Positions 20,165 to 38,407 are shown, counted from the stretch's first letter. The stretch is 64,000 nt of DNA from a bacterium (GCA_022839105.1 JALHDH010000002.1:8943-72942); one strand, 5' to 3'. Notes: generated by a model from the sequence alone, not told the origin. Made by a program: numbers and translations.

Positions 20165-21685
20165 TCAGGAATCGGAGGGACGGCCCAGCGCGAAGTCGAC
20201 CAGGCTCAGCAGCCCGTTGACGTCGAAGGGCTTGGAGAGGAAGGCCACGGCCCCGTGTTCGAGCATGTTGGCGCTGCGCTCGTCTGCCCCGTAGCCGCTC
20301 ATCACGACCACCCGCAGGTCGGGGTTCAGCTCGCGCATCTTCTCGAAGGCCTCCTGTCCCCCCATCACGGGCATGGTCAGATCCAGGAAGACCATCTTGA
20401 TTTCCCGGCCGTGGGTCTTGAGCAGTTCGACCGCCTCCAGGCCGTTGCGGGCCGTCAGGGCCCGATAGCCGCGTCGGCGCAGGGCGGCCCCGGCGAAGAG
20501 GCGGATGGCCTCCTCGTCGTCCGCGAAGAGGACCAGCTCGTTGGCCGACCGATCCAACAGGGAGGTCTCCGGGGGCTGGGCGCCGGGTGGCTCGTGAGCC
20601 GGGAGGGCGGGCTCGCGGGGGGCGGCGGGAGTGAAGGGCAGGAGCACCATGAACCGGGTTCCTAGGCCCTCTTCGCTGACGAAGCTGACCAGGCCCCCGT
20701 GGCTGCGGATGATCCCGTAGGTGGTGGCCAGGCCCAGTCCGCTCCGGGAGTCCTCGCGGGTGGTGAAGAAGGGGCGGAAGATGCGGGCCTGGATCTCCTT
20801 GGGGATGCCTCGGCCGGTGTCCCCCACCTCGAAGAGGAGGTAGCGGCCCGGGGCCGCTCCGGGGAAGTGCTGGCGGTGGTCTTCGTTCATCTCCACCAGG
20901 GAGCTGCGGAACACGATCACCCCCGGGTTGTCGGCCAGGGCATCGCGGGCGTTCAGGGCCAGGTTCACGAAGGCCTGTCGCAACTGCTCAGGGTCGGACT
21001 CGATCTGGCAAGGGTCGGCCTGAAGATCGACTCCGATCTCGATGTTCCGGGGGAAGGTCTGGCGGACCAGCTCGACGACGCCCTGGAAGACCTCGGAGGG
21101 GTCGCAGGATTCCTCCCGGCGCACGTGGCGCCTTCCAAAGGTGAGAAGCTGACCGGCCAGGTTCAGGCCTCGCCGGGCTGCGCTCTGCACCTGGCCGAGC
21201 AGGACCCGCGACGGGGTATCCTTGGCGTCCAGGACCAGCAGATCGGTCAACCCCAGGATCGCAGTGCCCACGTTGTTGAATTCATGTGCCAGTTCCCCGG
21301 AGAGCTCCGAGAGGGCCTCGACCCTTTGGGCCCGGTTGGTGTGTTCTTCGCGCTGCCTGCGTCGGGCCACGTCCTGCAAAACGGCATAGACGGGCCCCTC
21401 GGGCTGGACGGGATCCCCGTGGACCAGGACCTCCAGGAGCACTCCGTCGGGCATGGACACCAGGCTGCTCCAGGAATCGGCGCCCTCGCGCACGGTCCGG
21501 GCTGCCAGGGTCAGGGCCTCGGCCAGGATGGCGAGCTCGCCGTCCTGGGGGAGAGGGCGGCCGGCCCCTTCCTTCAACTCAAGAATGCGGGCAGCCTCTC
21601 GGTCGGGAAGGAATTGCCCGTCGGCCTCGATCCGGATCGTGCCGAAGGGGATCTCCGAGCCGGTGAAGGGAGTCGAGTTGCTCAT
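20165..21685 (-). CDS. Hybrid sensor histidine kinase (PAS-like sensor, HisKA, HATPase, C-terminal receiver)
   Basis: H-box LAHEFNNVGTAILG. The ATPase has N (ALNARDA), G1 (DTGRGIP) and G2 (GLGL) blocks. The receiver is VLFADDEEAI...VFLDLTMPVMGG...VVVMSGY. Confidence 0.8.
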   Translation of the reverse strand: MSNSTPFTGSEIPFGTIRIEADGQFLPDREAARILELKEGAGRPLPQDGELAILAEALTLAARTVREGADSWSSLVSMPDGVLLEVLVHGDPVQPEGPVYAVLQDVARRRQREEHTNRAQRVEALSELSGELAHEFNNVGTAILGLTDLLVLDAKDTPSRVLLGQVQSAARRGLNLAGQLLTFGRRHVRREESCDPSEVFQGVVELVRQTFPRNIEIGVDLQADPCQIESDPEQLRQAFVNLALNARDALADNPGVIVFRSSLVEMNEDHRQHFPGAAPGRYLLFEVGDTGRGIPKEIQARIFRPFFTTREDSRSGLGLATTYGIIRSHGGLVSFVSEEGLGTRFMVLLPFTPAAPREPALPAHEPPGAQPPETSLLDRSANELVLFADDEEAIRLFAGAALRRRGYRALTARNGLEAVELLKTHGREIKMVFLDLTMPVMGGQEAFEKMRELNPDLRVVVMSGYGADERSANMLEHGAVAFLSKPFDVNGLLSLVDFALGRPSDS

Positions 21686-21851
21686 GGTGGGGAGGCTTTC
21701 GGCGAAGCAGGGAAGCTGCCCTTTCCATCAGGCGAATCTGATCCGGCCTTTCCCCGCCTCGTCTCCTCCGAAAGGCCAGGAAACTCCGTTTCTTGGAAAA
21801 CCGAGGCCCGTCGGGTAGGGCTTCGAGTCGATCTTGCGAATAGGCGGACCC

Positions 21852-22064
21852 ATGAATCCTCAGAGCCATTGGGAGCGTTGGAAGGCGCTGGCGGCCCGGG
21901 CTGCCACCTTTCAGGCCAGGGTCCTGCTGGTGGCCTTCTATTGGGTGGTGGTGACTCCCTTCGCCCTGCTCTTGCAGGCCTTTGCGGACCCCCTGGAGCT
22001 TCGGAACCCCGAGGGCGGACGCTGGTCCCGACCCGCGGCCGGCGACCCCCGGCGGCAGCACTGA
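21852..22064 (+). CDS. Small single-TM protein upstream of the carbamoyltransferase (SxtJ-like candidate)
   Basis: 70 aa (MNPQSHWERWKALAARAATFQARVLLVAFYWVVVTPFALLL...). Its TGA overlaps the carbamoyltransferase ATG (TGATG at 22062-22066). An alternative TTG lies at 21834. Confidence 0.45.
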   Translation: MNPQSHWERWKALAARAATFQARVLLVAFYWVVVTPFALLLQAFADPLELRNPEGGRWSRPAAGDPRRQH

Positions 22065-25000
22065 TGAGGGTCCTGGGGATTTCCTGCTTCTATCACGACG
22101 CTGCGGCGGCTTTGCTGGTGGATGGGCACCTCGTCGCCGCGGCCGAGGAGGAGCGCTTCTCGCGGGTCAAGCACGACTGGGAGTTCCCTTCCCACGCGGT
22201 CCGGTTCTGCCTGGACCGGGCCGGGATCACCGGGGCCGACCTGGACCTGGTCGTCTTCTACGAGAAGCCCTTCTGGAAGTTCGACCGGATCCTGATGTCC
22301 ACCCTGGCCACCTGGCCCCGTTCGATGGTGGCCTTTCGGGAGGCCATGTTGGTCTGGCTCCTGGATAAGTTGTGGGCCCGGGATCTGCTCCAGGAGCGGA
22401 TCGGCTGCCAGCGGGATCGGATCGTCTTCTGTCCCCACCACATGTCCCACGCCGCCAGCGCCTTCTATCCTTCGGGGCTTGAGAAGTCCGCGATCCTGAC
22501 CGTGGACGGGGTGGGCGAGTGGGCCACCGGAACCCGGGGGACCGCCTGGGACCAGGAGATCCTCCTGGACGAGGAGATGCGCTACCCCCACTCATTGGGG
22601 TTGTTGTACAGCGCCTTCACGGCCTTCCTGGGCTTCCAGGTCAACGAGGGCGAATACAAGGTCATGGGCATGGCGCCCTACGGGCAGCCCCGCTTCGCGG
22701 ATCTGATCCTGGACAAGATGGTCCATCTGCGTCCGGACGGCTCCTTCCGCCTGGACATGGACTGCTTCGCCTACCACCACTCGGCCTTCCATTCCTTCAG
22801 CGAGCGCTTCGTCGAGTTGCTGGGGCCGGCTCGGACCCGGGAAGAGGCGAACCTCCTGGACCCCCACTATGCCGACGTGGCGGCCAGCATCCAGAAGGTT
22901 GCCGAGGAGATCCTGGTCCGACAGGCTTCCTGGCTGCACCGACGGACAGGGCACGAGGCCCTGTGCATGGCCGGAGGAGTCGCCCTGAACTCGGTGGCCA
23001 ACTCCCGGATCCTGCGCGAGTCGGGCTTCAAGAAGCTGTACATCCAACCCGCCGCCGGCGACGGGGGAGGTGCCCTGGGAGCCGCCCTCTGGGGCTACCA
23101 TCAGGTCCTGGGCGGGCGCGAACGTTTCCGGATGGATCACTGCTATTGGGGACAGGAACATTCCGACCAGGCCATCGCCGATTTCCTGCGCTCGGAAGGC
23201 CACGCCTACCAGGAATTCTCCGACCTGGAAGCGGTCCATTCGGAGGTGGCCGAACGCCTGGCCTGTGGACAGGTGGTGGGCTGGATGCAGGGGCGCTTCG
23301 AGTGGGGCCCTCGGGCCCTGGGCGCGCGCAGCATCCTGGCCGACCCCCGGGCGGCCCACATGAAGGACGTCGTCAACGCCCGGATCAAGTTCCGGGAGCC
23401 CTTCCGCCCCTTCGCACCCTCCGTTCTGGCCGAGCGGGTGGAGGATTACTTCGATCTTCCCGACGCGCCGGGGGTGGACCCGGCCCGCTTCATGCTGATG
23501 GTGGTCCCGGTCCGGCCCGATCGCCGGGACGAGATCCCCGCCGTGACCCACGTGGACGGCACCGCCCGCATCCAGGCCGTGCACCGGGAACAGAGTCCCG
23601 AATACCACGGGGTGATCTCGAGTTTCTGCCAGCTCACCGGGGTTCCGGTGGTCCTGAACACTTCGTTCAACCTGCGCGGCGAGCCCATCGTCAATACTCC
23701 TGCCGAGGCCTACTCGACCTTTGCCCGCTCGGACATGGATGCCCTGGTCATGGGCCGCTTCCTGGTCAGCCGCCGGGCGGCGGGTGAGGGGCGGCTGGTC
23801 CCAGGAGCGGAGCTGGAGAAGTGGGCCCACGCCCCCCAGAGGGTCTCTGGGACCGAGAACCGTCCAGAGTCCCGTCCGGCTCTTGCCGAGTCCGGTCACG
23901 GTCTTTTCGGAGTGCGCCCGGAAGAGTCGCCAGCCTCCGGCCCGAACGGCGTCTCACCGGCTTCGCTCCTGGGGAAGGTGGCGCTGGTCCTGCTGGCCAG
24001 CCTGGTCCTCCTGGAGATCCTGGTCCGCTTCCTGGTGCCCAATCCCAACATGCAGCTTCGCGGCATGTACCTCGAGGACGAGGAGGGAATCCGGCTTCGG
24101 CCGGGCTGGCAGGGCAGGATCCACAACGCGGAGTTCGACACCCGGGTCGAGATCGGTCCGGACGGCCGGCGGGATCTCCCCGAGCCCCCGCCGGACCCGA
24201 CGGCGACGGTCCTGGCCCTGGGGGATTCCTTCACCTTCGGCTGCTGGTCGGACTCCGACTCGACCTGGCTTGCCCGCCTGCAGCGAGCCGGCGGGGTCCG
24301 GGTCCTCAACGCCGGGGTTCCCAACGCGGGAACCGACGCCGAGGCGGCCTGGCTGCGCGGCCCGGGGGCCGGGATCCCGGCGGATCTGCTCCTGGTGGCC
24401 TTCTATACGGGCAACGACTTCCACGACAACCTGGTGGGACGGGACGCCTTCACCCTGGATTCCGGCTTCCTGGTGCTCAAGCCCGCCGCCGAGGCCCGTT
24501 GGAGCGGGTACGATTGTCTGGGGCGGACCCCTCCGCCCCGGACCGACCTGCCTCCAGATGCCCGCCGCCCCTGGTATCGCGGGGCTTTGATGCGCAGTCA
24601 CCTGTATCAGTATGTGCGTTCGCGGGTGTATGGGGGCACGCGTTCGGCCCTGCGCCCCTCCTTGCCCCAGGCCTGGTTCCTGCGCCGCTACACCCCCGAG
24701 ATGGAGCAGGCCCTGTTCAAGACCAACCAGCACCTCGACGACCTGCTGGCCCAGGCCAGATCGCGGGGGATTCCAATGGCCCTGGTTGTCATCCCCTCCT
24801 CCCAGGAGGTCTACGACGAGGAATGGCAGGCCTGGCTGGCGGCCTGGGAGCTGGAGGATGGGCTCTTCGATCGCTCCAGGCCGCGCCGCTTCCTGCTGGA
24901 CTGGGCCCGCCAGAGGAATGTGCCGGCCCTGGACCTGCTTCCATCGCTTCGGGGGCGGGAGCGTCTGTACTATCGGGCGGACATGCACTGGAATGACCTG

Positions 25001-25075
25001 GGCCACTTCCAGGCGGGTGAGAAGGTCGCGGAGTTCCTGCGCGAGCAGGGTCTTTCCGGAGAGGTGGGACGATGA
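22064..25075 (+). CDS. NodU/CmcH-family carbamoyltransferase fused via a TM helix to an AlgX/AlgJ-like SGNH (DHHW-type) domain
   Basis: 1003 aa. The N-domain starts MRVLGISCFYHDAAAALLVDGHLVAAAEEERFSRVKHD. The C-domain has HVDGTARIQAV and VVLNTSFNLRGEPIV. A TM segment is VALVLLASLVLLEILVRFLV. The SGNH blocks are LALGDSFTFGC, NAG, TGND and YYRADMHWNDLGH. The 455 codons upstream in the same ORF are antisense to the histidine kinase and were rejected. Confidence 0.8.
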   Translation: MRVLGISCFYHDAAAALLVDGHLVAAAEEERFSRVKHDWEFPSHAVRFCLDRAGITGADLDLVVFYEKPFWKFDRILMSTLATWPRSMVAFREAMLVWLLDKLWARDLLQERIGCQRDRIVFCPHHMSHAASAFYPSGLEKSAILTVDGVGEWATGTRGTAWDQEILLDEEMRYPHSLGLLYSAFTAFLGFQVNEGEYKVMGMAPYGQPRFADLILDKMVHLRPDGSFRLDMDCFAYHHSAFHSFSERFVELLGPARTREEANLLDPHYADVAASIQKVAEEILVRQASWLHRRTGHEALCMAGGVALNSVANSRILRESGFKKLYIQPAAGDGGGALGAALWGYHQVLGGRERFRMDHCYWGQEHSDQAIADFLRSEGHAYQEFSDLEAVHSEVAERLACGQVVGWMQGRFEWGPRALGARSILADPRAAHMKDVVNARIKFREPFRPFAPSVLAERVEDYFDLPDAPGVDPARFMLMVVPVRPDRRDEIPAVTHVDGTARIQAVHREQSPEYHGVISSFCQLTGVPVVLNTSFNLRGEPIVNTPAEAYSTFARSDMDALVMGRFLVSRRAAGEGRLVPGAELEKWAHAPQRVSGTENRPESRPALAESGHGLFGVRPEESPASGPNGVSPASLLGKVALVLLASLVLLEILVRFLVPNPNMQLRGMYLEDEEGIRLRPGWQGRIHNAEFDTRVEIGPDGRRDLPEPPPDPTATVLALGDSFTFGCWSDSDSTWLARLQRAGGVRVLNAGVPNAGTDAEAAWLRGPGAGIPADLLLVAFYTGNDFHDNLVGRDAFTLDSGFLVLKPAAEARWSGYDCLGRTPPPRTDLPPDARRPWYRGALMRSHLYQYVRSRVYGGTRSALRPSLPQAWFLRRYTPEMEQALFKTNQHLDDLLAQARSRGIPMALVVIPSSQEVYDEEWQAWLAAWELEDGLFDRSRPRRFLLDWARQRNVPALDLLPSLRGRERLYYRADMHWNDLGHFQAGEKVAEFLREQGLSGEVGR

Positions 25076-30605: not shown

Positions 30606-31973
30606 TCAGGCCTGGAGTTGAGGGGCGGCCACCCAGCGGAAGCTGGCGTAGAACTGGGCCAGGGGCATTCGGAAAAGTCCGGATTCACCGGACTCGGCGG
30701 CCATCAGCCAGGGCCCGGAGCCCCAGGGGTTCCGCAGGCCGACCGTGTCGCTTTGGGGATCATAGTCCAGCAAGGTGTAGCAGTGGCTGTTCTGCAGCCC
30801 GTTGTGGAGGGTCTCCACGTCGAAGGCGCGTTCCTCCTTCAGGAGGGGCCTGGGCCGGGTGCCGCAGATGCGGGGGCCGGGCTGGCTGCACATCTCGGCG
30901 ACCAGGTCGCGGGTGGCCAGCAGGCTCAGGTCATCGAGGGATTCCAGGCGGGCCTCGCGGCCGGTCAGGGCCAGGATCGCCTCCTGAGGGGGAACTCCGT
31001 CGGCGGCCTGGCGGACCGAACCGGCCGACCGCTGCTTGCGGGCCAGGCGTTGCCCCATGGCCACCTCCAGAAGGCCCGGCCAGCGCTCACCTGAGGTTCC
31101 CCTGGCGTGGAAGAGCCGCTCGGCGGGGGTCAACTCGAAGACCGTCTCGTCCTCGCCGTCCCGGAAGTTGACCCGGATCTCGCCGGCGGGGCCTGTCTGG
31201 AAGAGGCCCTCGACCTGATCGGGGGCCAGGCCCGCAGCCGTGGACAAAAGCACGCACGAGCCCAGGCGGTTCTGCCGGGTGGCCAGGGGATCCATGTCCT
31301 CGGATTCCAGGGGCGCGGCCGGGCCCAGGGCCTCAGCCTCGGGCTCGAGTCGCCGGAACTCGGCCTCCAGGCTGCGCGTCGCTTCCGGGGCGCCTGCGAA
31401 ACCCTGTCGGGAAAAAAGGCCCAGATCGGCACGGGTGATCCCCGGCCCGTCGTGGGGCTGGCAGGAACCCAGGGCTTCGGGATTGGAGCGCAGCAGGACC
31501 AGGGCGGCGGACTCGGCGGGCGTGGAATCGGTCGCTTCCATCGCTCGATCGATCTCGGCCACTTCCAGGCGGGTGTCCTGGTTGCGGTCCCACTGATCGA
31601 ACCTGCCGTCGACGGTCCGCACGAAGTCGGCCCTGGCCGGACCGGGAGCCTCCTCGCCAGATCCCTGGTTTTCGATGGCGGGGACCTCGCTCGGGTCGAA
31701 GCCCGGGCTCGACATGCGTCGGAACAGGGCCCGCTCGTAGGGCGTCCACACCTTGGCGGGATCCAGGCCGGCGAATTCCTGGTCCAGGCCCAGCTCCTCC
31801 AAGGCTTCCGCCAGCCGCGGCGGGTCGATGGGATCACGCAGGTCGGTGGCGGGATCCAGCAGGTCCTGGAAGACTTCGTCCGCCCGGTCGCCCGAGCGGA
31901 CCACGCGGACCAGCTCCGCCTGATTCAGGCGGTGGGCCAGGAAGGCTTCGCGGATCTGCTGGTTGGGGATCAT
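30606..31973 (-). CDS. Calpain-like (peptidase C2) cysteine protease with an N-terminal EF-hand-like loop; cytoplasmic
   Basis: 455 aa from M413 of the 867-aa ORF. It has Cys in NRLGSCVLLSTAAG, His in NSHCYTLLDY and Asn in LRNPWGSG. The EF loop is DRNQDTRLEVAE (31554-31589). The upstream 412 codons are low-complexity and were rejected. Confidence 0.6.
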   Translation of the reverse strand: MIPNQQIREAFLAHRLNQAELVRVVRSGDRADEVFQDLLDPATDLRDPIDPPRLAEALEELGLDQEFAGLDPAKVWTPYERALFRRMSSPGFDPSEVPAIENQGSGEEAPGPARADFVRTVDGRFDQWDRNQDTRLEVAEIDRAMEATDSTPAESAALVLLRSNPEALGSCQPHDGPGITRADLGLFSRQGFAGAPEATRSLEAEFRRLEPEAEALGPAAPLESEDMDPLATRQNRLGSCVLLSTAAGLAPDQVEGLFQTGPAGEIRVNFRDGEDETVFELTPAERLFHARGTSGERWPGLLEVAMGQRLARKQRSAGSVRQAADGVPPQEAILALTGREARLESLDDLSLLATRDLVAEMCSQPGPRICGTRPRPLLKEERAFDVETLHNGLQNSHCYTLLDYDPQSDTVGLRNPWGSGPWLMAAESGESGLFRMPLAQFYASFRWVAAPQLQA

Positions 31974-32032
31974 CTCGCTTGCATGGAAGCCCAGGACCCT
32001 GAAAGAGACCTGAAGCCCGCTGGGGCAGGCAT

Positions 32033-32752
32033 CTAGGGCTTGCGGCTCCGGGCCCAGGGGATCATGCCGGCCAGCCAGTCGGCCGCTTCCTTGTAGGCTG
32101 CGGGCGGGGCGATGGTGTGACCGCCCTGGAACTCGATCCACCTGGTTTCCCAGCCCAGAGCCTTCAGACGCTTCTCGTCGGCCTTCATCTCCTGGTAGCG
32201 GAAGTCGCTGGGGCTGGCCAGGAAGACCGCGACCCGGTTGCGCGGGGCGGGCAGACGCGATTGCGGGTGGGACATCCCGGTGTTGACGACGATGGCCACC
32301 ACGGCGTCGGGCTCCATGGCGCTCATGTCGTGCGAGAACATCCCACCGCCGGAGAACCCGGTGGCGATCAGGCACCTGCCGTCGATGGGGTAGGTTGCCT
32401 GGACCTCTTTGAGGATGGCGCGCAGGTCGGCCACCATGGGCGTCGCGTCCTCCCCGTTCCGAAAGCCGTTGAAGCCCAGGACGAACCACTTGTATTTCGC
32501 GGCGTGGGGCCGCCACAGTTGCACCAGGTGGCGGGTTTCGCCGTTCGGCGAGAAGACCATCACCAGAGGCCTCTTGTCGCTGGCCTTCAGGCCGCCGGGG
32601 ACGAAGAGCGTGTAGTTCGGCCCCTGGATCGTGGCGTCCGCGGGCGCCGCCTGCGCGGCCAGCGGGAACACAAGGACGCACGCCAGGGCCAGGATGAGGA
32701 GCAGACCGGTGAGGATGCGCACGGGAAGGCCTCCTGAGGAAGAGTCGCCCAT
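32033..32752 (-). CDS. Secreted alpha/beta-hydrolase (esterase/depolymerase-like)
   Basis: Start at M11 gives a signal peptide (...LLLILALACVLVFPLAAQAA). The nucleophile elbow is GFSGGG. Confidence 0.6.
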   Translation of the reverse strand: MGDSSSGGLPVRILTGLLLILALACVLVFPLAAQAAPADATIQGPNYTLFVPGGLKASDKRPLVMVFSPNGETRHLVQLWRPHAAKYKWFVLGFNGFRNGEDATPMVADLRAILKEVQATYPIDGRCLIATGFSGGGMFSHDMSAMEPDAVVAIVVNTGMSHPQSRLPAPRNRVAVFLASPSDFRYQEMKADEKRLKALGWETRWIEFQGGHTIAPPAAYKEAADWLAGMIPWARSRKP

Positions 32753-32922
32753 GAGTCTGCCACTCCCCCGCCCGGGCGCCATGACGCAGCGCAGGAGGTG
32801 CGGCGTGTCTGCGTCCAGGGCGGCCTCCTGGAGGAACGGTTCTCGTCATGATCCTGAGGAAATGCCGCAGATTCATGCTGGAATCATGGCTTGGAGCAGA
32901 TCCCAGGGATTCCCCGTGCCAT

Positions 32923-33843
32923 TCACTTCCGTTCCGCGCGCTGGAGGAAGTCCCGGACCAGACCGAGGTAGCGTTCGGGTTGCTCCAAGTGGTGCTCGTG
33001 GGAAGCGTCGGGCAGGACGGCCACCTCGGAACCCGGCATCCTCTGGTGGTAGAAGGCCGTGGTGGAGGGGGGGGCCTCGTCGGATTCGCCGCAGGTGAAG
33101 AGGGTCGGCGTCGCGATCTCGGGCAGCCGTTCCACCCGTTCGAAATCCCGGAGGCTCCCCGTGACGACGAACTCGCTGGGCCCCCACATCTGGAGGTAGA
33201 CCGGCGCACCGAGACCGGCCATGCTCCGCTCGAGGCTCTCAGGCCAGGGGGCGAGGCGACACACGTGCTCCCGGTAGTAGGCCTGGACCGCCTCCTGGAA
33301 AGCCGGGCCCTCGAAGTCGCGCGATCGGGCTCCCTCCTGCACTCTTGCAGGCATCCGGGCCAGCCAGGCGGCCTGGTCAGCCTCCCATCGGCGGGCGCTC
33401 AGGCAAGGCCCGGACAGGACGAGGCTTTGAACACCCGTCGGGCGCTTCGTGAGCATGTATTCGACGGCCAGCATGGTGCCCCACGACTGGCCCAGCAGGT
33501 GGACCTGGTCGAGGCGCAGGGCTGCACGGACCGCGGCCAGTTCCTCCACGAAGCGCTCCAGCGTCCAGAGGGAGGGATCCTCGGGGCGGTCCGATCGCCC
33601 GCACCCCAACTGGTCGTAGAAGACGACTCGACGCTGATCCCCGAGGGCGGCCAGGCCCTCCAGGTAGTCGTGGGGGAACCCCGGGCCGCCGTGGAGGACC
33701 AGGAGTGGCGTCCCAGGCCCGCCTCCCACCGCGCGATACCAGATTCGCCCGCCAGGGACCTGGAGGAAGCCCTCCTCTGCCGAAGCGGGCACGCAGCAGC
33801 CGAGAACAATGCCGAAGACCACGGCGGACATCCAGAAGTTCAT
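32923..33843 (-). CDS. Secreted alpha/beta-hydrolase, S33 (proline-iminopeptidase-like) family
   Basis: Start at M48 gives the signal peptide MNFWMSAVVFGIVLGCCVPASA. Motifs are LVLHGGPGF and GQSWGTMLA (GxSxG). Confidence 0.65.
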   Translation of the reverse strand: MNFWMSAVVFGIVLGCCVPASAEEGFLQVPGGRIWYRAVGGGPGTPLLVLHGGPGFPHDYLEGLAALGDQRRVVFYDQLGCGRSDRPEDPSLWTLERFVEELAAVRAALRLDQVHLLGQSWGTMLAVEYMLTKRPTGVQSLVLSGPCLSARRWEADQAAWLARMPARVQEGARSRDFEGPAFQEAVQAYYREHVCRLAPWPESLERSMAGLGAPVYLQMWGPSEFVVTGSLRDFERVERLPEIATPTLFTCGESDEAPPSTTAFYHQRMPGSEVAVLPDASHEHHLEQPERYLGLVRDFLQRAERK

Positions 33844-34388
33844 CCTGCTGGTTTCCTGCCAGCAGGGGAGTTCCCTTTGCCGCATTGGATTGGTCCTGGT
33901 TTCCCGGGTGTCTGAGATGGATCCAGGCCGCGGCGGCCTCACCCGGAATCGCTCGGGGGCCATCGCGGCTCTCATTGGAGGCATGTTTGCAGGAGAATGG
34001 GACCTCTCCCCCCGCCTGAATCCGGGCAGGACTTCGCCAAGAGAATCGAGAAGCGGATTCAGCCCCAGCTCGAGCCACCAGGGCTGTGCCCAATGGCATG
34101 GATTCGGGTCTTGTGTTGGATGCGGGGTGTCGGCAGGGTTCTGCGCTCAGTCTTGGTGCGCGCTCGGCGCATGGTTTCGTGTCCGCCTTTTCGGAACGCC
34201 GTGAATTCGGATGATCCGGATGGCGTCTGCAGGTCGTCTTGTGGGAGACAGGCAGGCCGGGCTGCTCCATTCATCTGGGACTCTCGGCTCAAGCTCTTGT
34301 TCACCGTGCGGAGGTGCCGGGTCTCCCGACGGGTCGAGCCCTTCTGCTCAGTTCAGTCCTTCGGGGTGATAAGAGGCCTGAGACCAGC

Positions 34389-35780
34389 GTGCTTTTCAAC
34401 TCTCTGGAATTCCTGGTCTTCCTGGTGGTGGTCTACGGCCTGTTCCTCGCAGTGCCCCGGAGGGGGAGAAGCTGGCTTCTGCTGGCCGCTTCCTGGTTCT
34501 TCTATGGTTATTGGAGCCTGAAGTTCCTCGGCCTCCTGGTGGCGACCACGGCCATCGACTGGTGGATCGGGTTGGCCCTGGAACACGCCCGGCCACCCCG
34601 CCGTCGCTTCCTGGTGTTTCTCAGCGTGGCGTTCAATCTGGGCCTGCTGGCGACGCTTAAATACTTCAACTTCTTCGCCGGTGAGTTCAGCCGGTTCCTG
34701 GCCCTGCTGGGGGTGGAAGTGCCCCTGCCCGTCCTGGAGTGTGTCCTGCCGGTCGGATTGTCCTTCTACGTTTTTCAGTCGATGGGATACACGATCGATG
34801 TTTATCGCGGGGCCCTGAAACCTACCAGGGATTTCTTCGTTTTTGCCTTGTTCGTCTCGTTCTTCCCACAATTGGTGGCCGGGCCTATCGAGCGGGCAGG
34901 AAATATGTTGGGTCAATTCGCCGCGAGTCCCGATTCGACCTCGGAACAGCGATCGCGGGGGTTCTACCTGATTCTGTGGGGCTATTTCAAGAAGGTCGTG
35001 GTCGCCGACAACCTGGCGCTCGTGGTTCAGGGGGTCTTTGACTCCCCGACGACAGCGGGTGGCTTCATGGTCTTGATGGCCACCTACGCCTTCACCCTTC
35101 AGATCTATTGCGACTTCTCCGGATATTCGGATATCGCCAGGGGCCTTGCGCGCTACTTCGGAATCGAGCTGATGGAGAACTTCAGGCTCCCCTTCTTCGC
35201 TGCTAATCCCCGAGATTTCTGGCACCGTTGGCATATCAGCCTCTCAACCTGGTTGCGCGATTATTTGTATTTCCCGTTGGGGGGAAGTCGGCTTGGAGCC
35301 ATCCGCACCGGTTTGAACCTCATGGTCACGACGCTGCTCTGCGGACTGTGGCACGGAGCCAATTGGACCTACGTGGCCTGGGGGGGATATCACGGCCTGG
35401 GATTGCTGGTCCACAGGCTGGTGCCGCCGCTGCGCCTGGGCTTCCTGGGGAAGCCATTCGCCTGGTTGGGCACCTTCCTCTTCGTCAGTCTTGGATTCCT
35501 GGTCTTCCGGGCGCACTCGCTGACGCAGGCGGGCGATCTGCTCGCCAGCGCGCTGAATTCGCCTTCACCTTGCCCCGGAGATTTCGGCGTCCTGCAACGA
35601 ATCGTGTTGCTGACCCTGCCGGTCTGGGCTCTCGAGACCCTTCAACTCCTGACTGGGGACCGGGAAGTCTTGCTGCGCCTGTGGCCACCGCTTCAATGTC
35701 TTCTGACGGCTGGTTTGCTGCTCGCAATCCTCATCCTGGGAGCGCCTGATGGCCGACCTTTCATCTATTTCCAATTCTAG
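34389..35780 (+). CDS. MBOAT-family membrane O-acyltransferase (AlgI/DltB-like)
   Basis: GTG start at residue 51 of ORF 34239. Motifs are VLFNSLEFLVFL, WHISLSTWLRDYLYFPLGGSR and WHGANWTYVAWGGYHG (the conserved His). The region has markedly lower GC. Confidence 0.75.
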   Translation: MLFNSLEFLVFLVVVYGLFLAVPRRGRSWLLLAASWFFYGYWSLKFLGLLVATTAIDWWIGLALEHARPPRRRFLVFLSVAFNLGLLATLKYFNFFAGEFSRFLALLGVEVPLPVLECVLPVGLSFYVFQSMGYTIDVYRGALKPTRDFFVFALFVSFFPQLVAGPIERAGNMLGQFAASPDSTSEQRSRGFYLILWGYFKKVVVADNLALVVQGVFDSPTTAGGFMVLMATYAFTLQIYCDFSGYSDIARGLARYFGIELMENFRLPFFAANPRDFWHRWHISLSTWLRDYLYFPLGGSRLGAIRTGLNLMVTTLLCGLWHGANWTYVAWGGYHGLGLLVHRLVPPLRLGFLGKPFAWLGTFLFVSLGFLVFRAHSLTQAGDLLASALNSPSPCPGDFGVLQRIVLLTLPVWALETLQLLTGDREVLLRLWPPLQCLLTAGLLLAILILGAPDGRPFIYFQF

Positions 35781-36711
35781 ATTCTTTCGATATCGCTGCA
35801 TGCGGGCTCGCAGGTTGTTCATGAGCTCGCTGCTGGCGCTGCTCGTCCTGGAATCGGCCGTCGTGCATCTTGGTTTCAGGTGGGACGATTTTCCTGCTCG
35901 TCTGGAGGACTTCAACTGGCGTCGGGCAAGCGAGGCGCCTGAGGTTGTCGTCCTCGGAACCTGCCTGTCGGTTGGCCTGCACCCGCGATTCCTGGAGTCG
36001 GAGTTGGGGGGAACGGCAAAGGTCTACAACCTGTCTCGCGGGGATACCTATGCCCTGAACTGGTATCTCCTGGCGATCAACCACGTGCTGAAGCGTCCGG
36101 GGGACCGGACGATTCTCATGGTGCATCATCCTTCGGAGCTTCTGACTCCCGTCGGCGCAAGCGAGGGGGAGGCGGTTGTCTTGGACCTGGCCTCCTGGTC
36201 GGACATGCCCCTTGTGCTCCGGATGGCCTCGGAGCCTGGGCGAAGCCCTCTCCATCTCCTGTTGGCGAAGATCTGGCGGACCTATCGATATCGACACTTC
36301 ATGGCTTCGGCCCTGTGGCAGGGCCTGGGCATCCAGGGCGCATTGCCCGACGAGGCTTCCCTCGAATTGCGCCCGGAGGCTCCCGCCACCAGGGCTGAGA
36401 GGCAGGCCCGGGCCCTGAATTGCCTCAAGCTCCTGCTGGATGCAGCCCACGAACAACAGACTCAGGTCTTCTTCGTTCCTTTGCCTGAGCGGAATTCTCC
36501 GAAAGCAGCGGGCGAGGACCGGGTGTGGCAGGCTGTCGCGCCTTTGGGCGCGAGCTTCCTGGATGTTCGGGAACAGGTTCCGGTGGCTCCCGGCGATTTC
36601 TGGACCAGCAGGCACATGACCGATCAGGGGAGCCAGAAGTTCTGTCGCGTCCTGGCCAGCGCTTTGAAACGCCACCTCAGCCTTGGGGCGGATGCCGCAT
36701 CCCGGCCATGA
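35749..36711 (+). CDS. Membrane-anchored periplasmic partner of the MBOAT (divergent AlgJ/DltD-like)
   Basis: 320 aa. A GGAG RBS precedes the ATG at 35749, which overlaps the MBOAT end by 32 nt (alternative ATG at 35800). It has one TM (MSSLLALLVLESAVV). The C-terminal FWTSRHMTDQG weakly resembles the DxxHW motif of AlgX/AlgJ. Confidence 0.45.
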   Translation: MADLSSISNSRFFRYRCMRARRLFMSSLLALLVLESAVVHLGFRWDDFPARLEDFNWRRASEAPEVVVLGTCLSVGLHPRFLESELGGTAKVYNLSRGDTYALNWYLLAINHVLKRPGDRTILMVHHPSELLTPVGASEGEAVVLDLASWSDMPLVLRMASEPGRSPLHLLLAKIWRTYRYRHFMASALWQGLGIQGALPDEASLELRPEAPATRAERQARALNCLKLLLDAAHEQQTQVFFVPLPERNSPKAAGEDRVWQAVAPLGASFLDVREQVPVAPGDFWTSRHMTDQGSQKFCRVLASALKRHLSLGADAASRP

Positions 36712-36887
36712 AGACGCATGAGTGCATCTGCATTCGGTTGGGCACGGCAGAGCTCCAGACTACGAAGTCTTGAACGATTCAGGCCCACGAACTCGTGCTT
36801 CAGCAGATAGGATTGATGCCCACGCTTGACGGCCGATCCTGCGAGGAACGGATGGGTCGCGCAGTCGTACCGCGCAGGACCCGGGCG

Positions 36888-36931
36888 GAACCAAGAAAGC
36901 CGGGTCTGGGGCCCGGAGGCTCCAGACCCGG
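36888..36931 (-). terminator. Rho-independent terminator after the PLP-enzyme gene
   Basis: Perfect 10-bp stem CCGGGTCTGG/CCAGACCCGG (36900-36931) with a 12-nt loop. On the minus strand it is followed by CTTTCTTGG (36888-36899). It lies 25 nt below the stop at 36956. Confidence 0.45.
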
Positions 36932-36955
36932 CTCTTCATCCGGGAATCGGGAGGG

Positions 36956-38407
36956 TCAGTTCAGGCCGGTGGCCTGGTTGAACTCCTCGATCAGCTTGTC
37001 CAGCGGGTCGAGGCTCTCCTGCAACTGGCTCCAGTACCCGGCATCGTACCACTGGGCCTGGATCTCCTCGTAGGTCTTTCCCTGCTGCTCGACCCAGGTA
37101 TAGTACTTCAGGTTGTGGACGCGCTTGCGGTCCGCGTAGGTCAGCTCCTGCATCCAGTCCGTCGTGGTCCCCAGCATGTAGCGGTGGAAGGCCACGGCGG
37201 CGTCGGTGGCGGTGAAGGGGCCCCGGGCCTGGTTCATCTCGCGCAGGCGGCTGGTGTACATCTCGGCTGAGTCGGTGAACATGGTCATCACCACGTCGTC
37301 CGAGGTCAGCTCGTAGTACTTCGCCATCTTGATGGCCGAGAGCACGTTGGAGACCGAGCTGATGCCCAGCCACGACAACTTCTCGATCAGTTCCGGCTTG
37401 AGACCCTGGCTGGCCAGGTAGCAATGCCCTTCGGGCTCGTTGAGCAGTCGCATCAGGGTCATGGTCGCCTCGTCGTCGATGGCCACGACCATGTCGGTGT
37501 TCTTGACGTTGTGCACCCAGGGGACGTGCTTGTCCCCGATCCCCTCGATGCGGTGTCCGCCGAAGCCGTTGGTCAGCAGGGTCGGGCACTGGATGGCCTC
37601 GGAGGCGGCGATCTTCGAGGTGGGGAAGAGGTTCTTCATGTAGTCGCCGGCGGCGATGGTCCCCGCCGAGCCGGTGGCCGAGACCAGGCCGCGATAGGTG
37701 CCGCCCACCTGCCGGAGGGCCTCCTCCATGGCTGGTCCGGTCACGTGGTAGTGCCACAGGTAGTTGCCGAACTCGTCAAACTGGTTGAAGATCACCAGGT
37801 CCTGGCCGGACTTGCGCAGCTCCCAGCACTTGTCGAAGATCTCCTTGACGTTGCTCTCGCAGCCCGGGGTGGCGATGATCTCACCGGCCACGCTCTTGAG
37901 CCAGTCGAAGCGCTCCTGGCTCATCTCCTCGGGCAGGATGGCGATCGACTCGCAGCCCAGCAGGACCGAGTCGTAGGCCCCGCCCCGGCAATAGTTGCCG
38001 GTCGAGGGCCAGACCGCCTTCTGGCGGGTGGGGTCGAACTGACCGGTTACCAGGCGCGGGACCAGGCACCCGAAAGCGGCTCCGACCTTGTGGGCGCCCG
38101 TGGGGAACCACTTGCCGGCCAGACCCACGATCCTTGCCGGAACCCCGGTGAGCTCGGAGGGCAACTCCACGTAGTTGACCGGCCCGAAACCGCCACCGTG
38201 GGCCACAGGCTCGTTGTGCCAGGTGATCCGGAACAGGTTCAGGGGGTTGATGTCCCACAGCCCGATGTTCTTCAGGCCCTCCACCACATCCGCCGGGATC
38301 AGCTCGGGGTGGCGCATCTGCTTGAAGGTGGGGATTCGGATCTTGCGCTCGCGGGCGCGTTCCACGACGCGCTTCAGGGCCTCAGGGTTTACGGTCAGGT
38401 CAATCAT
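36956..38407 (-). CDS. PLP-dependent enzyme of the Trp-synthase-beta/cysteine-synthase (PALP) fold with N- and C-terminal extensions
   Basis: 483 aa. The PALP core FPTGAHKVGAAF...WPSTGNYCRGGAYDSVLLG...ILPEEMSQERFDWLKSVAGEIIATPG aligns to CysK NPSGSIKDR...TSGNTG...PE.MS.ER. Specific function is unknown. GC is lower than in flanking genes. Confidence 0.6.
   Translation of the reverse strand: MIDLTVNPEALKRVVERARERKIRIPTFKQMRHPELIPADVVEGLKNIGLWDINPLNLFRITWHNEPVAHGGGFGPVNYVELPSELTGVPARIVGLAGKWFPTGAHKVGAAFGCLVPRLVTGQFDPTRQKAVWPSTGNYCRGGAYDSVLLGCESIAILPEEMSQERFDWLKSVAGEIIATPGCESNVKEIFDKCWELRKSGQDLVIFNQFDEFGNYLWHYHVTGPAMEEALRQVGGTYRGLVSATGSAGTIAAGDYMKNLFPTSKIAASEAIQCPTLLTNGFGGHRIEGIGDKHVPWVHNVKNTDMVVAIDDEATMTLMRLLNEPEGHCYLASQGLKPELIEKLSWLGISSVSNVLSAIKMAKYYELTSDDVVMTMFTDSAEMYTSRLREMNQARGPFTATDAAVAFHRYMLGTTTDWMQELTYADRKRVHNLKYYTWVEQQGKTYEEIQAQWYDAGYWSQLQESLDPLDKLIEEFNQATGLN

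What the first reader, a model, noticed from the sequence alone, without database searches (positions are those of the whole stretch)
33844..36711. Lower-GC island with an MBOAT (AlgI/DltB-like) gene and a periplasmic partner behind a 545-bp non-coding leader; a second glycan O-modification machine 9 kb from the carbamoyltransferase fusion
GC falls to roughly 50-60% across 34.4-36.7 kb, against about 70% elsewhere. The codon style differs visibly, for example TTT, AAA and TAT codons appear. A 545-bp region (33844-34388) holds no credible ORF; it lies divergent from the S33 hydrolase gene and upstream of the MBOAT. The MBOAT carries the canonical AlgI/DltB histidine block. The gene that follows is a single-TM periplasmic protein with only a degenerate AlgJ-like motif (FWTSRHMTDQG instead of DTHW). 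A strong terminator hairpin closes the region at 36900-36931. This suggests a horizontally acquired polysaccharide or teichoic-acid-like O-acylation pair. The long leader may encode a regulatory RNA or riboswitch.
Basis: partly seen in the sequence, partly recalled or inferred. Interest (0 to 1): 0.55.

Follow-up and report, generated by a model that had tools for sequence, protein, structure and literature searches.

The report
MBOAT acyltransferase pair with cysteine-type partner
This is a two-gene membrane machine of a known kind that moves an acyl group from the cytoplasm onto something outside the cell, but its outer enzyme belongs to an unnamed protein clade that carries a cysteine where all characterised partners carry the catalytic serine; the "foreign island" and "riboswitch" ideas are not supported.

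Summary
The sequence features are largely real, but several were overstated or assigned to the wrong thing. GC across 33844-36711 is 61.2% against 67.8% for the window, not 50-60%. GC3 is 0.76 and 0.73 against 0.86 for neighbouring genes.

Gene 1 (34389-35780) is an MBOAT. It has the catalytic His282 and ends in FIYFQF, the FXYXXF acyl-tyrosine shuttle motif shown for PatA. Gene 2 (35749-36711) overlaps gene 1 by 32 nt. It has one N-terminal membrane helix and no Pfam, NCBIfam or PDB sequence match. A confident model (pLDDT 89.5) matches DltD and PatB best.

The profile search found 56 Cys-type and 79 Ser-type clusters. In the former, SGNH block I reads G-T-C; the latter keep G-N/D-S. Both types sit beside FIYFQF-ended MBOATs.

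The pair occupies the same syntenic place in four related genomes (UBP9, Eremiobacterota). Its synonymous divergence is only slightly above its neighbours', so recent acquisition is unlikely.

The 545-bp leader has no ORF, no Rfam match, no conservation and no excess folding, and it coincides with a synteny breakpoint. The hairpin is the conserved terminator of the convergent PALP gene.

Verdict: a new variant of a known kind. The acceptor is unknown.

The parts
33844..34388 (.). Non-coding divergent intergenic region between the S33 hydrolase gene and the MBOAT gene. It coincides with a synteny breakpoint relative to relatives.
   Evidence: GC 62.8%, flat across codon phases, and no conserved ORF or nucleotide match in relatives. 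No Rfam match. No sigma-70-like promoter match. Folding z = +0.27 for 34089-34388. Homology with L014 ends at about 34354. Alignments A2 and A6 show conservation only in the last ~45 nt.
34389..35780 (+). MBOAT-family membrane acyltransferase, 463 aa, GTG start
   Evidence: PF03062 E = 8e-23, 81.7 bits against a cut-off of 27. DltB structures 6bug and 8jem match at E = 7e-27. Orthologues in relatives are also 463 aa and start at the same GTG. Independent gene calls give 463 aa.
35232..35234 (+). Codon of His282, in the motif WHRWH(282)ISL. This is the universally conserved MBOAT histidine.
   Evidence: It aligns with the FWNRWHMSL histidine of DltB. Coordinates. This histidine is required in PatA and DltB according to PMC12148441.
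35760..35777 (+). C-terminal hexapeptide FIYFQF (Tyr460), the FXYXXF acyl-shuttle motif
   Evidence: Coordinates. An F[IV]YFQF* terminus is present in all 11 partner-associated MBOATs examined. The motif and the acetyl-Tyr intermediate were shown for PatA (PMC12148441).
35749..36711 (+). Partner gene, 320 aa: a membrane-anchored SGNH-fold (DltD/PatB-like) protein of an unnamed family. Its ATG lies 32 nt inside the MBOAT gene.
   Evidence: No Pfam, NCBIfam or PDB sequence match. Model pLDDT 89.5, pTM 0.86. Foldseek top hits are DltD at 2e-6 and PatB at 2e-5. The same 32-nt overlap occurs in L001 and L004; the distant loci L007 and L009 also overlap by 32 nt, and L008 by 26 nt. Relatives lack the internal Met codons, so the upstream ATG is the conserved start.
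35815..35877 (+). Single transmembrane helix of the partner (aa 23-43). Six Arg residues precede it, which implies N-terminus in and catalytic domain out.
   Evidence: Hydropathy scan. The model has a helix at 12-41. Topology follows from the positive-inside rule and is an inference.
35956..35964 (+). SGNH block I, reading G70-T71-C72. Cys (TGC) occupies the position of the nucleophilic Ser.
   Evidence: G and C are invariant in the 51-sequence alignment. All 56 Cys-type representatives have G[TSAG]C, and the 79 weaker hits have G-x-S, mostly G[NSD]S. hhalign of the Cys clade against the Ser relatives gives 99.95% probability, E = 1e-37, with GTCL aligned to GNS. The motif aligns with GDSL of PAF acetylhydrolase. 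It lies directly after strand 65-70 in the model.
36604..36615 (+). SGNH block V, reading T286-S-R-H289. The His is kept and the usual Asp at -3 is lost.
   Evidence: His is present in 91% of the Cys clade and 99% of the Ser relatives. Asp at -3 is present in 43 of 51 against 75 of 78, Fisher p = 0.025. The five closest relatives read DDRH. The block aligns to block V of PAF-AH and a lysophospholipase L1-like esterase.
36898..36933 (-). Intrinsic-terminator hairpin (16-bp stem, 4-nt loop, T-rich tail on the minus strand) belonging to the convergent PALP gene. It may also stop the partner transcript.
   Evidence: It is conserved in position, with base changes that keep the stem, downstream of PALP in L014, L001 and L005, where the partner gene is 3.6 kb away.
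36956..38407 (-). Context: PLP-dependent enzyme (cysteine-synthase-like, 483 aa), the syntenic anchor gene
   Evidence: PF00291. Below the cut-offs for CysK and CysM. 94% identical to L014 and 90% to L001.
32923..33843 (-). Context: proline-iminopeptidase-family (S33) alpha/beta hydrolase, 306 aa, divergent from the MBOAT. It is not syntenic in relatives.
   Evidence: TIGR01250 293.5 bits against a cut-off of 167.65. Pfam Abhydrolase_1. No match in L001, L004, L005 or L014.

Best explanation
Genes 34389-35780 and 35749-36711 form a self-contained, translationally coupled two-gene module that carries an acyl group across the membrane. It is of the bacterial MBOAT-SGNH type. The likely mechanism, with each step marked as shown here or inferred:
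1. The MBOAT takes an acyl group, most likely acetyl from acyl-CoA, at its cytoplasmic face. This is inferred by analogy with PatA.
2. His282 catalyses transfer to Tyr460 in the C-terminal FIYFQF shuttle peptide. The motif is shown here. The chemistry is inferred from PatA and DltX.
3. The acyl-Tyr peptide swings to the active site of the partner. The partner is anchored by one N-terminal helix, with a DltD/PatB-like SGNH domain outside the membrane. The fold is shown by modelling. The topology is inferred.
4. Cys72, activated by His289, takes the acyl group as a thioester, and the partner passes it to an unknown extracytoplasmic acceptor. The residue positions are shown by alignment. Catalysis is inferred.

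The partner belongs to a Pfam-less family with two forms: a Ser form and a discrete Cys form (G-T-C). The Asp of block V is more often missing in the Cys form, as it is in this protein. This fits a Cys-His dyad like the one reported for TviD.

The pair is inherited vertically in this UBP9 (Eremiobacterota) lineage. Its lower GC3 is a local feature specific to this lineage. The long upstream region is ordinary non-conserved intergenic DNA at a rearrangement junction.
For: MBOAT identity and catalytic His.

Shuttle motif: FIYFQF lies at the exact C-terminus here and in all 11 associated MBOATs. The experimental basis for the Tyr shuttle in PatA is PMC12148441.

Partner fold: pLDDT 89.5. DltD, PatB and PAF-AH are the top Foldseek hits at probability 1.00. 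Even the poor first model hit SGNH hydrolases.

SGNH superfamily membership by sequence: 9 of 51 Cys-type and 15 of 50 Ser-type members hit Lipase_GDSL_2. Some Ser-type members also hit DUF1574, ALGX and DUF459.

Cys at the nucleophile position.

Gene pairing:
- In the close relatives the MBOAT is directly upstream: L001, L004, L005, L006 and L014.
- In Cys-clade members only 24-32% identical, L009, L010 and L011 have a Pfam-confirmed MBOAT directly upstream.
- L007 and L012 have a truncated upstream ORF ending in FIYFQF.
- A Ser-type member (L008) also has an MBOAT directly upstream.

Purifying selection on both genes: omega is 0.18 for the MBOAT and 0.37-0.50 for the partner in all pairs.

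The same gene arrangement appears in three independent assemblies.

Precedent: TviD has Gly-Ser-Cys in block I, Cys and His are required, and Asp is dispensable (PMC8760489).
Against: - No biochemical data exist for any member of this family.
- The acyl group, the donor and the acceptor are unknown, and the neighbourhood is not a glycan-synthesis cluster.
- I could not inspect the model coordinates, so the Cys72-His289 geometry is unverified.
- This copy has lost the block V Asp and about 21 residues present in its closest relatives.
- The partner evolves faster than any flanking gene (53% identity against 70-94%). Reduced or altered function in this genome cannot be excluded.
- Foldseek TM-scores are moderate (0.37-0.61).
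Confidence: 0.7

Rival explanations
1. The MBOAT-partner pair is a recently acquired horizontal island.
For: - It is the lowest-GC stretch in the window.
- GC3 is 3-4 SD below other genes, and four A/T-ending codons are enriched.
- The window's MBOAT GC3 (0.76) is lower than every orthologue (0.82-0.88).
- dS to L014 (0.71-0.75) is the highest among the ten syntenic genes.
- The region borders a synteny breakpoint on one side and a 3.6-kb deletion on the other.
Against: - The pair lies at the same place, in the same orientation relative to PALP, in L001, L005 and L014.
- Its dS is only slightly above the 229-aa gene (0.63) and EEP/ARH (0.59). The excess is what the GC3 shift itself would produce.
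- The partner has lower GC3 than its neighbours in relatives too (0.77-0.81), so part of the signal is a trait of the family.
- There is no tRNA, no flanking repeat, and no integrase or transposase.
- Caveat: most relatives were found through the partner itself. Only L014 was found independently, through PALP.
Confidence: 0.15
2. The partner in this genome is a decaying or non-catalytic protein, for example a scaffold or pseudoenzyme, and only the MBOAT is functional.
For: Loss of the block V Asp (TSRH against DDRH in relatives) and a deletion of about 21 residues. Lowest identity to the closest relative among syntenic genes and the highest omega, 0.44-0.46. Low GC3.
Against: - Cys72, His289, R180, R182, W105 and P246 are all retained.
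- Omega is well below 1 and similar in every other pair of orthologues (0.37-0.50), so fast evolution is a trait of the family.
- The ORF is intact in three independent assemblies.
- Asp is absent in 16% of the Cys clade and is dispensable in TviD.
- The overlapping start and a GGGAG Shine-Dalgarno-like site are kept.
Confidence: 0.1
3. The pair is simply an orthologue of a characterised system (AlgI/AlgJ alginate, DltB/DltD teichoic acid, or PatA/PatB peptidoglycan O-acetylation) that has diverged beyond recognition by sequence.
For: The partner's best structural matches are DltD and PatB. The MBOAT's best solved relative is DltB. The FIYFQF motif closely resembles PatA's FIYANF. Peptidoglycan is an acceptor every bacterium has, and the module travels without a dedicated polysaccharide cluster.
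Against: - DltB TIGR04091 scores 141 against a cut-off of 375.
- There are no DltA, DltC or DltX genes nearby, and the shuttle motif is built into the MBOAT, unlike in DltB.
- The partner gives no hit to DltD, ALGX, DHHW or DUF459 models.
- The motif order is nucleophile first and His last. AlgJ/AlgX has the reverse order, which I state from my own knowledge of that family.
- The nucleophile is Cys, not Ser.
- Functional equivalence to PatB, that is peptidoglycan as the acceptor, is not excluded.
Confidence: 0.1
4. The 545-bp leader encodes a riboswitch or another cis-regulatory RNA.
For: Its length is unusual. Relatives also have long upstream gaps (436 bp in L001). The ~45 nt before the start codon are weakly conserved, with a small hairpin (CAGCCC-TTCG-GGGCTG in L014).
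Against: No Rfam match at E <= 1 with permissive filters. The MFE of 34089-34388 is no better than shuffles, z = +0.27. There is no sequence conservation with four relatives beyond the ribosome-binding region. The region is a synteny breakpoint with a different upstream gene in every relative.
Confidence: 0.05

Closest known systems
PatA/PatB peptidoglycan O-acetyltransferase pair of Gram-negative bacteria (MBOAT plus DUF459 SGNH protein; PMC12148441)
   Same: A two-gene MBOAT plus single-pass, extracytoplasmic SGNH-fold partner. The MBOAT is about 460 aa with the conserved His and a C-terminal FXYXXF shuttle peptide (FIYFQF here, FIYANF in N. gonorrhoeae PatA). The partner model matches PatB structures 7tlv, 7tjb and 8tlb at E = 2e-5 to 7e-4.
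   Different: The partner gives no DUF459 (PF04311) hit. It has Cys instead of the catalytic Ser, and this copy lacks the block V Asp. It also carries a helical insertion of about 100 residues (aa ~130-235) between strands 3 and 4. The acceptor is unknown.
DltB/DltD (with DltA, DltC and DltX) teichoic acid D-alanylation
   Same: The best solved relatives of both proteins come from this system: DltB 6bug and 8jem at E = 7e-27, and DltD 7dxm, 3bma, 6o93 and 6pfx at E = 2e-6 to 1e-4. The partner has an N-terminal membrane anchor, as DltD does.
   Different: The MBOAT is far below the DltB equivalog cut-off (141 against 375 bits). The shuttle Tyr motif is on the MBOAT itself rather than on a DltX microprotein. 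There is no DltA or DltC nearby. There is no PF04914 hit. The nucleophile is Cys, not Ser.
TviD, the Vi-antigen O-acetyltransferase (SGNH-like domain with Gly-Ser-Cys in block I; PMC8760489)
   Same: An SGNH-like fold in which block I has a Cys at the nucleophile position. Cys and the block V His are required and the block V Asp is dispensable. This parallels G-T-C plus His here, and the frequent loss of Asp in the Cys clade.
   Different: As far as I know TviD works without an MBOAT partner, and it carries a C-terminal TPR domain. It has no membrane anchor of this type. Sequence homology between TviD and this family was not tested here, because I had no TviD sequence.
AlgI/AlgJ/AlgX alginate O-acetylation
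   Same: An MBOAT with an adjacent periplasmic acyltransferase partner of the SGNH-like superfamily.
   Different: The window partner gives no ALGX (PF16822) hit. The order of catalytic motifs follows classic SGNH. There are no alginate genes nearby. 'FWTSRH' is block V of SGNH, not a degenerate DTHW.

Membership tests
MBOAT (PF03062) | Pfam model above the gathering threshold | tested here: met
   81.7 bits against a cut-off of 27, E = 8e-23
MBOAT (PF03062) | Universally conserved catalytic histidine | tested here: met
   His282 in WHRWHISL aligns with the DltB histidine
Bacterial MBOAT-SGNH acyl-shuttle systems (PatAB type) | C-terminal FXYXXF hexapeptide with an invariant Tyr on the MBOAT | tested here: met
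   FIYFQF at residues 458-463, followed by the stop. Present in all 11 associated MBOATs. Motif definition from PMC12148441.
Bacterial MBOAT-SGNH acyl-shuttle systems (PatAB type) | Adjacent extracytoplasmic SGNH-fold partner | tested here: met
   32-nt overlapping gene. The model matches DltD and PatB. One TM helix with Arg-rich N-terminus.
Bacterial MBOAT-SGNH acyl-shuttle systems (PatAB type) | Catalytic Ser in block I of the partner (covalent acyl-Ser intermediate) | tested here: not met
   The position is Cys72, and Cys is invariant in all 56 representatives of this clade
Bacterial MBOAT-SGNH acyl-shuttle systems (PatAB type) | Auto-acylation of the Tyr and transfer to the partner | not testable with these tools
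   Needs biochemistry
DltB (TIGR04091 equivalog) | Score above the curated cut-off | tested here: not met
   141.3 bits against 375
Dlt system | DltA ligase, DltC carrier and DltX microprotein in the locus | tested here: not met
   Neighbouring genes are an S33 hydrolase, a PALP enzyme, GT2, EEP, an M13 peptidase and an MFS transporter
DltD (PF04914) | Pfam model match | tested here: not met
   No hit at E <= 10 for the six close members. Fold similarity only.
AlgJ/AlgX (PF16822) | Pfam model match | tested here: not met
   No hit for the window protein. 3 of 51 clade members hit weakly, E >= 0.02.
PatB / DUF459 (PF04311) | Pfam model match | tested here: not met
   No hit for the window protein. 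1 of 51 clade members hits at E = 0.0035.
SGNH hydrolase superfamily | Flavodoxin-like alpha/beta/alpha fold with parallel strands | tested here: met
   Model pLDDT 89.5. 30 PDB hits at E <= 1e-3, all listed being SGNH proteins or design scaffolds on that fold.
SGNH hydrolase superfamily | Block I GDS with nucleophilic Ser | tested here: not met
   G-T-C here
SGNH hydrolase superfamily | Block V DxxH | tested here: inconclusive
   His289 is present. Asp at -3 is replaced by Thr in this protein, but is present in the five closest relatives and in 84% of the clade.
SGNH hydrolase superfamily | Block II Gly and block III Asn forming the oxyanion hole | tested here: inconclusive
   Gly98 after strand 2 is invariant in the close set. 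There is no conserved Asn after strand 3, and position 130 is Asp or Glu.
Genomic island | Deviant composition | tested here: met
Genomic island | Absent from the orthologous site in relatives | tested here: not met
   Present at the syntenic site in L001, L005 and L014
Genomic island | tRNA, direct repeats or mobility genes at the borders | tested here: not met
Riboswitch / known cis-regulatory RNA | Match to an Rfam covariance model | tested here: not met
   0 matches at E <= 1 over 33600-37200, both strands

The most novel reading that the evidence does not exclude
The partner represents a clade of MBOAT partners that, as far as I could find, has not been described. It comprises 56 clusters at 50% identity and has no Pfam or NCBIfam model. 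In this clade the extracytoplasmic acyl relay would run from Tyr O-ester (on the MBOAT C-terminus) to Cys thioester (on an SGNH-fold enzyme) to the acceptor, instead of Tyr to Ser. A thioester intermediate could change the acceptor chemistry, for example by favouring amine acceptors. It might also be favoured in anaerobes such as UBP9, where an exposed thiol would survive. Neither of these two points was tested.
Probability: 0.45. Interest if true: 0.6.

Novelty: new variant of a known kind. Interest (0 to 1): 0.45.

Why it matters
MBOAT-SGNH pairs decorate peptidoglycan, alginate, cellulose, teichoic acids and secondary wall polymers. These decorations govern lysozyme resistance, biofilm properties and susceptibility to antimicrobials.

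The mechanism proposed in 2025 (acyl-CoA to Tyr on a C-terminal shuttle peptide, to Ser on the SGNH partner, to the polymer) was offered as general. This locus shows that the shuttle motif does extend to an unnamed, uncultured-lineage family.

It also shows that a whole clade has replaced the Ser with Cys, and that the block V Asp is missing more often in that clade than among the Ser-type relatives. This is a natural experiment on the relay's chemistry. It is directly testable with the peptide-donor assays already published for PatB.

It also gives roughly 135 orphan 'hypothetical protein' clusters a fold, a partner and a probable role.

The practical lesson for the scan is that the compositional dip and the long leader, which drew attention, are the ordinary part of this finding.

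Tried and rejected
- Rfam scan of 33600-37200 with permissive thresholds found nothing.
- The promoter consensus scan found no sigma-70-like site. This is uninformative for this phylum.
- A search for a conserved element in the leader by aligning four relatives and then the closest relative, and by blastn and tblastn, found only the last ~45 nt similar.
- Sequence searches with the partner against Pfam, NCBIfam and PDB gave nothing significant.
- The first structure model, from six sequences, was poor (pLDDT 54.6). It was replaced by a 51-sequence model.
- The second word-indexed homologue search, using the 51-sequence profile, added only two proteins.
- I suspected the long hits of 800-1100 aa to be MBOAT fusions, and P0064 (831 aa, which I recalled as TviD's length) to be TviD. 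Pfam found nothing in them, and their block I is Ser-type at residue ~65-70, so they are neither.
- I first read the PALP, MBOAT and partner identity matrices as evidence that the pair had been exchanged between lineages. dS for more genes showed the outlier is the PALP gene of L005 (GC3 0.71), not the pair, so I dropped that argument.
- The partner GC3 was computed out of frame and is discarded.
- The stop-to-stop ORF 20666-25075 is not all coding. The carbamoyltransferase starts near 22064.

Full report

The stretch 33844-36711 is 61.2% GC in a window of 67.8%. It is the lowest stretch of that length in the window, with only 1.2% of sliding positions lower, which puts it about 3.3 SD below the mean. 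In 400-nt windows the values run from 56.8 to 64.2%, so '50-60%' overstates the dip.

Amino-acid composition of a membrane protein does not explain all of it. GC3 is 0.76 for the first gene and 0.73 for the second. Twenty-six other genes of the window average 0.858 +/- 0.032, with a minimum of 0.80. The partner figure printed was out of frame and is ignored.

A/T-ending codons are enriched for four amino acids:

| Amino acid | Pair | Other genes | p |
|---|---|---|---|
| Tyr (TAT) | 15/24 | 71/240 | 0.002 |
| Asp (GAT) | 16/28 | 174/586 | 0.005 |
| Lys (AAA) | 4/13 | 17/255 | 0.013 |
| Asn (AAT) | 7/16 | 43/245 | 0.018 |
| Phe (TTT) | 6/59 | 38/486 | 0.46 |

The 545-bp gap is real. GC is flat across the three codon phases (0.59-0.66), no ORF in it has a relative, and gene callers on three independent assemblies of the same organism call nothing there.

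**2. The first gene**

34389-35780 (GTG start, 463 aa) matches Pfam MBOAT at E = 8e-23. It matches the solved DltB structures at E = 7e-27, with its WHRWH(282)ISL aligned on the catalytic-histidine block.

It is not DltB: the equivalog model scores 141 bits against a cut-off of 375.

A 2025 study of PatA/PatB showed that bacterial MBOATs other than DltB carry a C-terminal FXYXXF hexapeptide. PatA auto-acetylates the invariant Tyr of this peptide from acetyl-CoA, and the acetylated peptide (FIYANF in Neisseria) serves as donor for the SGNH partner PatB. In the Dlt system the same motif sits on the microprotein DltX (PMC12148441). Every MBOAT I found next to a relative of the second gene ends in F[IV]YFQF (11 of 11).

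**3. The second gene**

35749-36711 (320 aa) starts 32 nt inside the first gene, in the DNA that encodes the shuttle peptide. The same overlap is found in L001 and L004, and again in the distant loci L007 and L009; L008 overlaps by 26 nt. The relatives lack the internal Met codons of the window protein, so the upstream ATG is the conserved start and the two genes are probably translationally coupled.

The protein has six Arg residues, then one hydrophobic helix (aa 23-43), then an acidic stretch. By the positive-inside rule the bulk of the protein lies outside the membrane, which is an inference.

It matches nothing in Pfam, NCBIfam or PDB by sequence. It has only six word-index homologues among 5.8 billion proteins.

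**4. The family behind the second gene**

An exhaustive profile search of 1.84 billion representatives found 159 proteins at E <= 1e-3 and 49 at E <= 1e-10.

Aligned to the family profile, the strongest hits (E below about 1e-8) almost all read h-h-h-h-G-[T/S/A]-C, 56 representatives in total. The weaker hits read G-[N/D/S]-S, 79 representatives in total.

A profile-profile comparison of the two groups gives 99.95% probability, E = 1e-37, over 299 columns. GTCL lies on GNS, and F-x-D-D-x-H-x-x-x-G lies on F-x-D-x-x-H-L-N-x-x-G.

Some members reach Pfam models:
- Lipase_GDSL_2 is hit by 9 of 51 Cys-type and 15 of 50 Ser-type members.
- Some Ser-type members also hit DUF1574, ALGX, DUF459 and SGNH.

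Weak PDB sequence alignments place the Cys on the GDSL serine of PAF acetylhydrolase, and His289 on its block V histidine.

**5. Structure of the second protein**

With six sequences the model was poor (pLDDT 54.6), although it already hit SGNH hydrolases. With the 51-sequence alignment it became confident (pLDDT 89.5, pTM 0.86).

The best Foldseek matches in the PDB, all at probability 1.00, are:

| Match | E-value |
|---|---|
| DltD (7dxm, 3bma, 6o93, 6pfx) | 2e-6 to 1e-4 |
| PatB (7tlv, 7trr, 7tjb, 8tlb) | 2e-5 to 7e-4 |
| PAF acetylhydrolase and other GDSL esterases | 1e-4 and weaker |

G70-T71-C72 follows strand 65-70, and His289 precedes the last helix. These are the classic positions of SGNH blocks I and V.

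**6. The Cys variant**

Cys72 is invariant and His289 nearly so, across proteins only 20-30% identical. This argues for catalysis rather than decoration.

The block V Asp is missing in 8 of 51 Cys-type proteins and in 3 of 78 Ser-type proteins (Fisher p = 0.025). The window protein is one of the eight, while its five closest relatives read DDRH.

The only precedent I found for Cys at this position in an SGNH-like enzyme is TviD, the Vi-antigen O-acetyltransferase. It has Gly-Ser-Cys in block I, Cys18 and His253 are required, and Asp250 is dispensable, so its authors proposed a Cys-His dyad (PMC8760489).

Full-text searches combining MBOAT, SGNH and cysteine terms found no paper describing a Cys-type MBOAT partner. 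This is absence from an open-access library, not proof of novelty.

Most Cys-clade proteins also have a C-x4-C pair at window positions 161 and 166, which the UBP9 subgroup has replaced by Ser.

**7. Pairing with an MBOAT is the rule**
- Close relatives L001, L004, L005, L006 and L014 all have the MBOAT directly upstream.
- So do Cys-clade members only 24-32% identical. L009, L010 and L011 have a Pfam-confirmed MBOAT. L007 and L012 have a truncated upstream ORF ending in FIYFQF.
- A Ser-type member, L008, has one too.
- Neighbours outside the pair differ in every locus, and the window neighbourhood is not a glycan cluster. It holds an S33 hydrolase, M13 peptidase, MFS transporter, PALP enzyme, GT2, EEP and ADP-ribosylglycohydrolase.

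So the module is self-contained and its acceptor cannot be read from context.

**8. Island or not?**

The relatives come from MAGs labelled UBP9. UBP9 is treated as a basal, apparently anaerobic class of Candidatus Eremiobacterota (PMC6664022).

A scan for the neighbouring PALP gene, which does not depend on the pair, found L014 with 94% identity. L014 is collinear with window 48313-36911, and again with 36329-34354.

In L014, L001 and L005 the pair lies on the same side of PALP in the same orientation. About 3.6 kb separates them there (a 72-aa ORF, a B12-binding radical SAM gene, Fpg and a 249-aa ORF), and the window lacks this block. The window arrangement recurs in three independent assemblies.

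Against L014, dS for the pair is 0.71-0.75. For eight flanking genes it is 0.25-0.63. That is a small excess, of the size expected from the GC3 shift itself (0.76 against 0.88).

The partner has lower GC3 than its neighbours in relatives as well (0.77-0.81).

Omega is 0.18 for the MBOAT and 0.37-0.50 for the partner in every pair of orthologues. The partner's fast evolution is therefore a trait of the family, not decay in this genome.

No tRNA, flanking repeat or mobility gene is present.

I conclude that inheritance is vertical, with a synonymous drift towards A/T specific to this lineage. Import from an unsampled lower-GC relative remains possible, at about 15%.

**9. Leader and terminator**

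For the leader:
- Rfam finds nothing at E <= 1.
- The 300 nt before the start fold no better than shuffles, z = +0.27.
- Alignments with four relatives and with L014 show similarity only in the last ~45 nt. These include an AAGAGG Shine-Dalgarno-like site and a small hairpin.
- Homology with L014 stops at about 34354 and the upstream gene differs in every relative. The 'leader' is a rearrangement junction.

For the hairpin at 36898-36933:
- It has a 16-bp stem.
- Its T-tail is on the minus strand.
- It begins 23 nt after the PALP stop.
- It is conserved, with stem-preserving changes, downstream of PALP in L014, L001 and L005.

It is PALP's terminator. It may act in both directions, but it was not built for the pair.

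**10. Verdict**

The locus is an MBOAT-SGNH type acyl relay with the Tyr shuttle built into the MBOAT. It is closest in organisation to PatA/PatB and closest in partner fold to DltD.

It fails the membership tests for DltB, DltD, AlgJ/AlgX and PatB by sequence models. It departs from all characterised pairs in having Cys for Ser.

That makes it a new variant of a known kind, in an unnamed family of roughly 135 clusters at 50% identity.

Noticed in passing
window 22064-25075 (+), inside the stop-to-stop ORF 20666-25075: A carbamoyltransferase (PF02543 plus PF16861) is followed by one transmembrane helix and a C-terminal SGNH/AlgX-like domain with a canonical LALGDSFTFG block I. This would be a cytoplasmic carbamoyltransferase fused through the membrane to an external SGNH domain. 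The first ~466 codons of the long ORF look non-coding.
   Followed up: partly
L013 5653-9221 (Logan SRR10367862): An MBOAT ending in FIYFQF is followed directly by an AMP-binding plus PP-binding protein (DltA/DltC-like). It lies 1.4 kb from a 1089-aa Ser-type relative of the partner. This could be a Dlt-like aminoacyl or acyl relay that uses a built-in shuttle motif.
   Followed up: no
window 36712-36955, compared with L014 11447-15078, L001 11036-14879 and L005 10976-14598: The window lacks a block of about 3.6 kb (a 72-aa ORF, a B12-binding radical SAM gene, Fpg and a 249-aa ORF) that separates the partner from PALP in three relatives. No copy of these genes was found elsewhere in the 64-kb window.
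   Followed up: yes
L005 14599-16065 (UBA6111): The PALP gene of this MAG has GC3 0.71 and dS ~0.95 to L014. The adjacent MBOAT-to-p249 block has dS 0.21-0.31 and GC3 ~0.84. Either the PALP gene was replaced in that lineage or the contig is chimeric.
   Followed up: partly
partner residues 161 and 166 (window 36229-36231 and 36244-36246): 82% of Cys-clade proteins have Cys at both positions (a C-x4-C pair, possibly a disulfide). The window protein and its UBP9 relatives have Ser or other residues there.
   Followed up: no
window 34340-34388; L014 17462-17505 (minus strand): The ~45 nt before the MBOAT start codon are the only conserved part of the leader. They contain a small hairpin, perfect in L014 (CAGCCC-TTCG-GGGCTG) and imperfect in the window, just upstream of the AAGAGG ribosome-binding site.
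   Followed up: partly
window 30606-32030 (-) and 32033-32782 (-): Two neighbouring genes have good coding GC3 but no Pfam match: a ~474-aa protein and a 249-aa protein with a signal-like N-terminus. Neither is syntenic in relatives.
   Followed up: no
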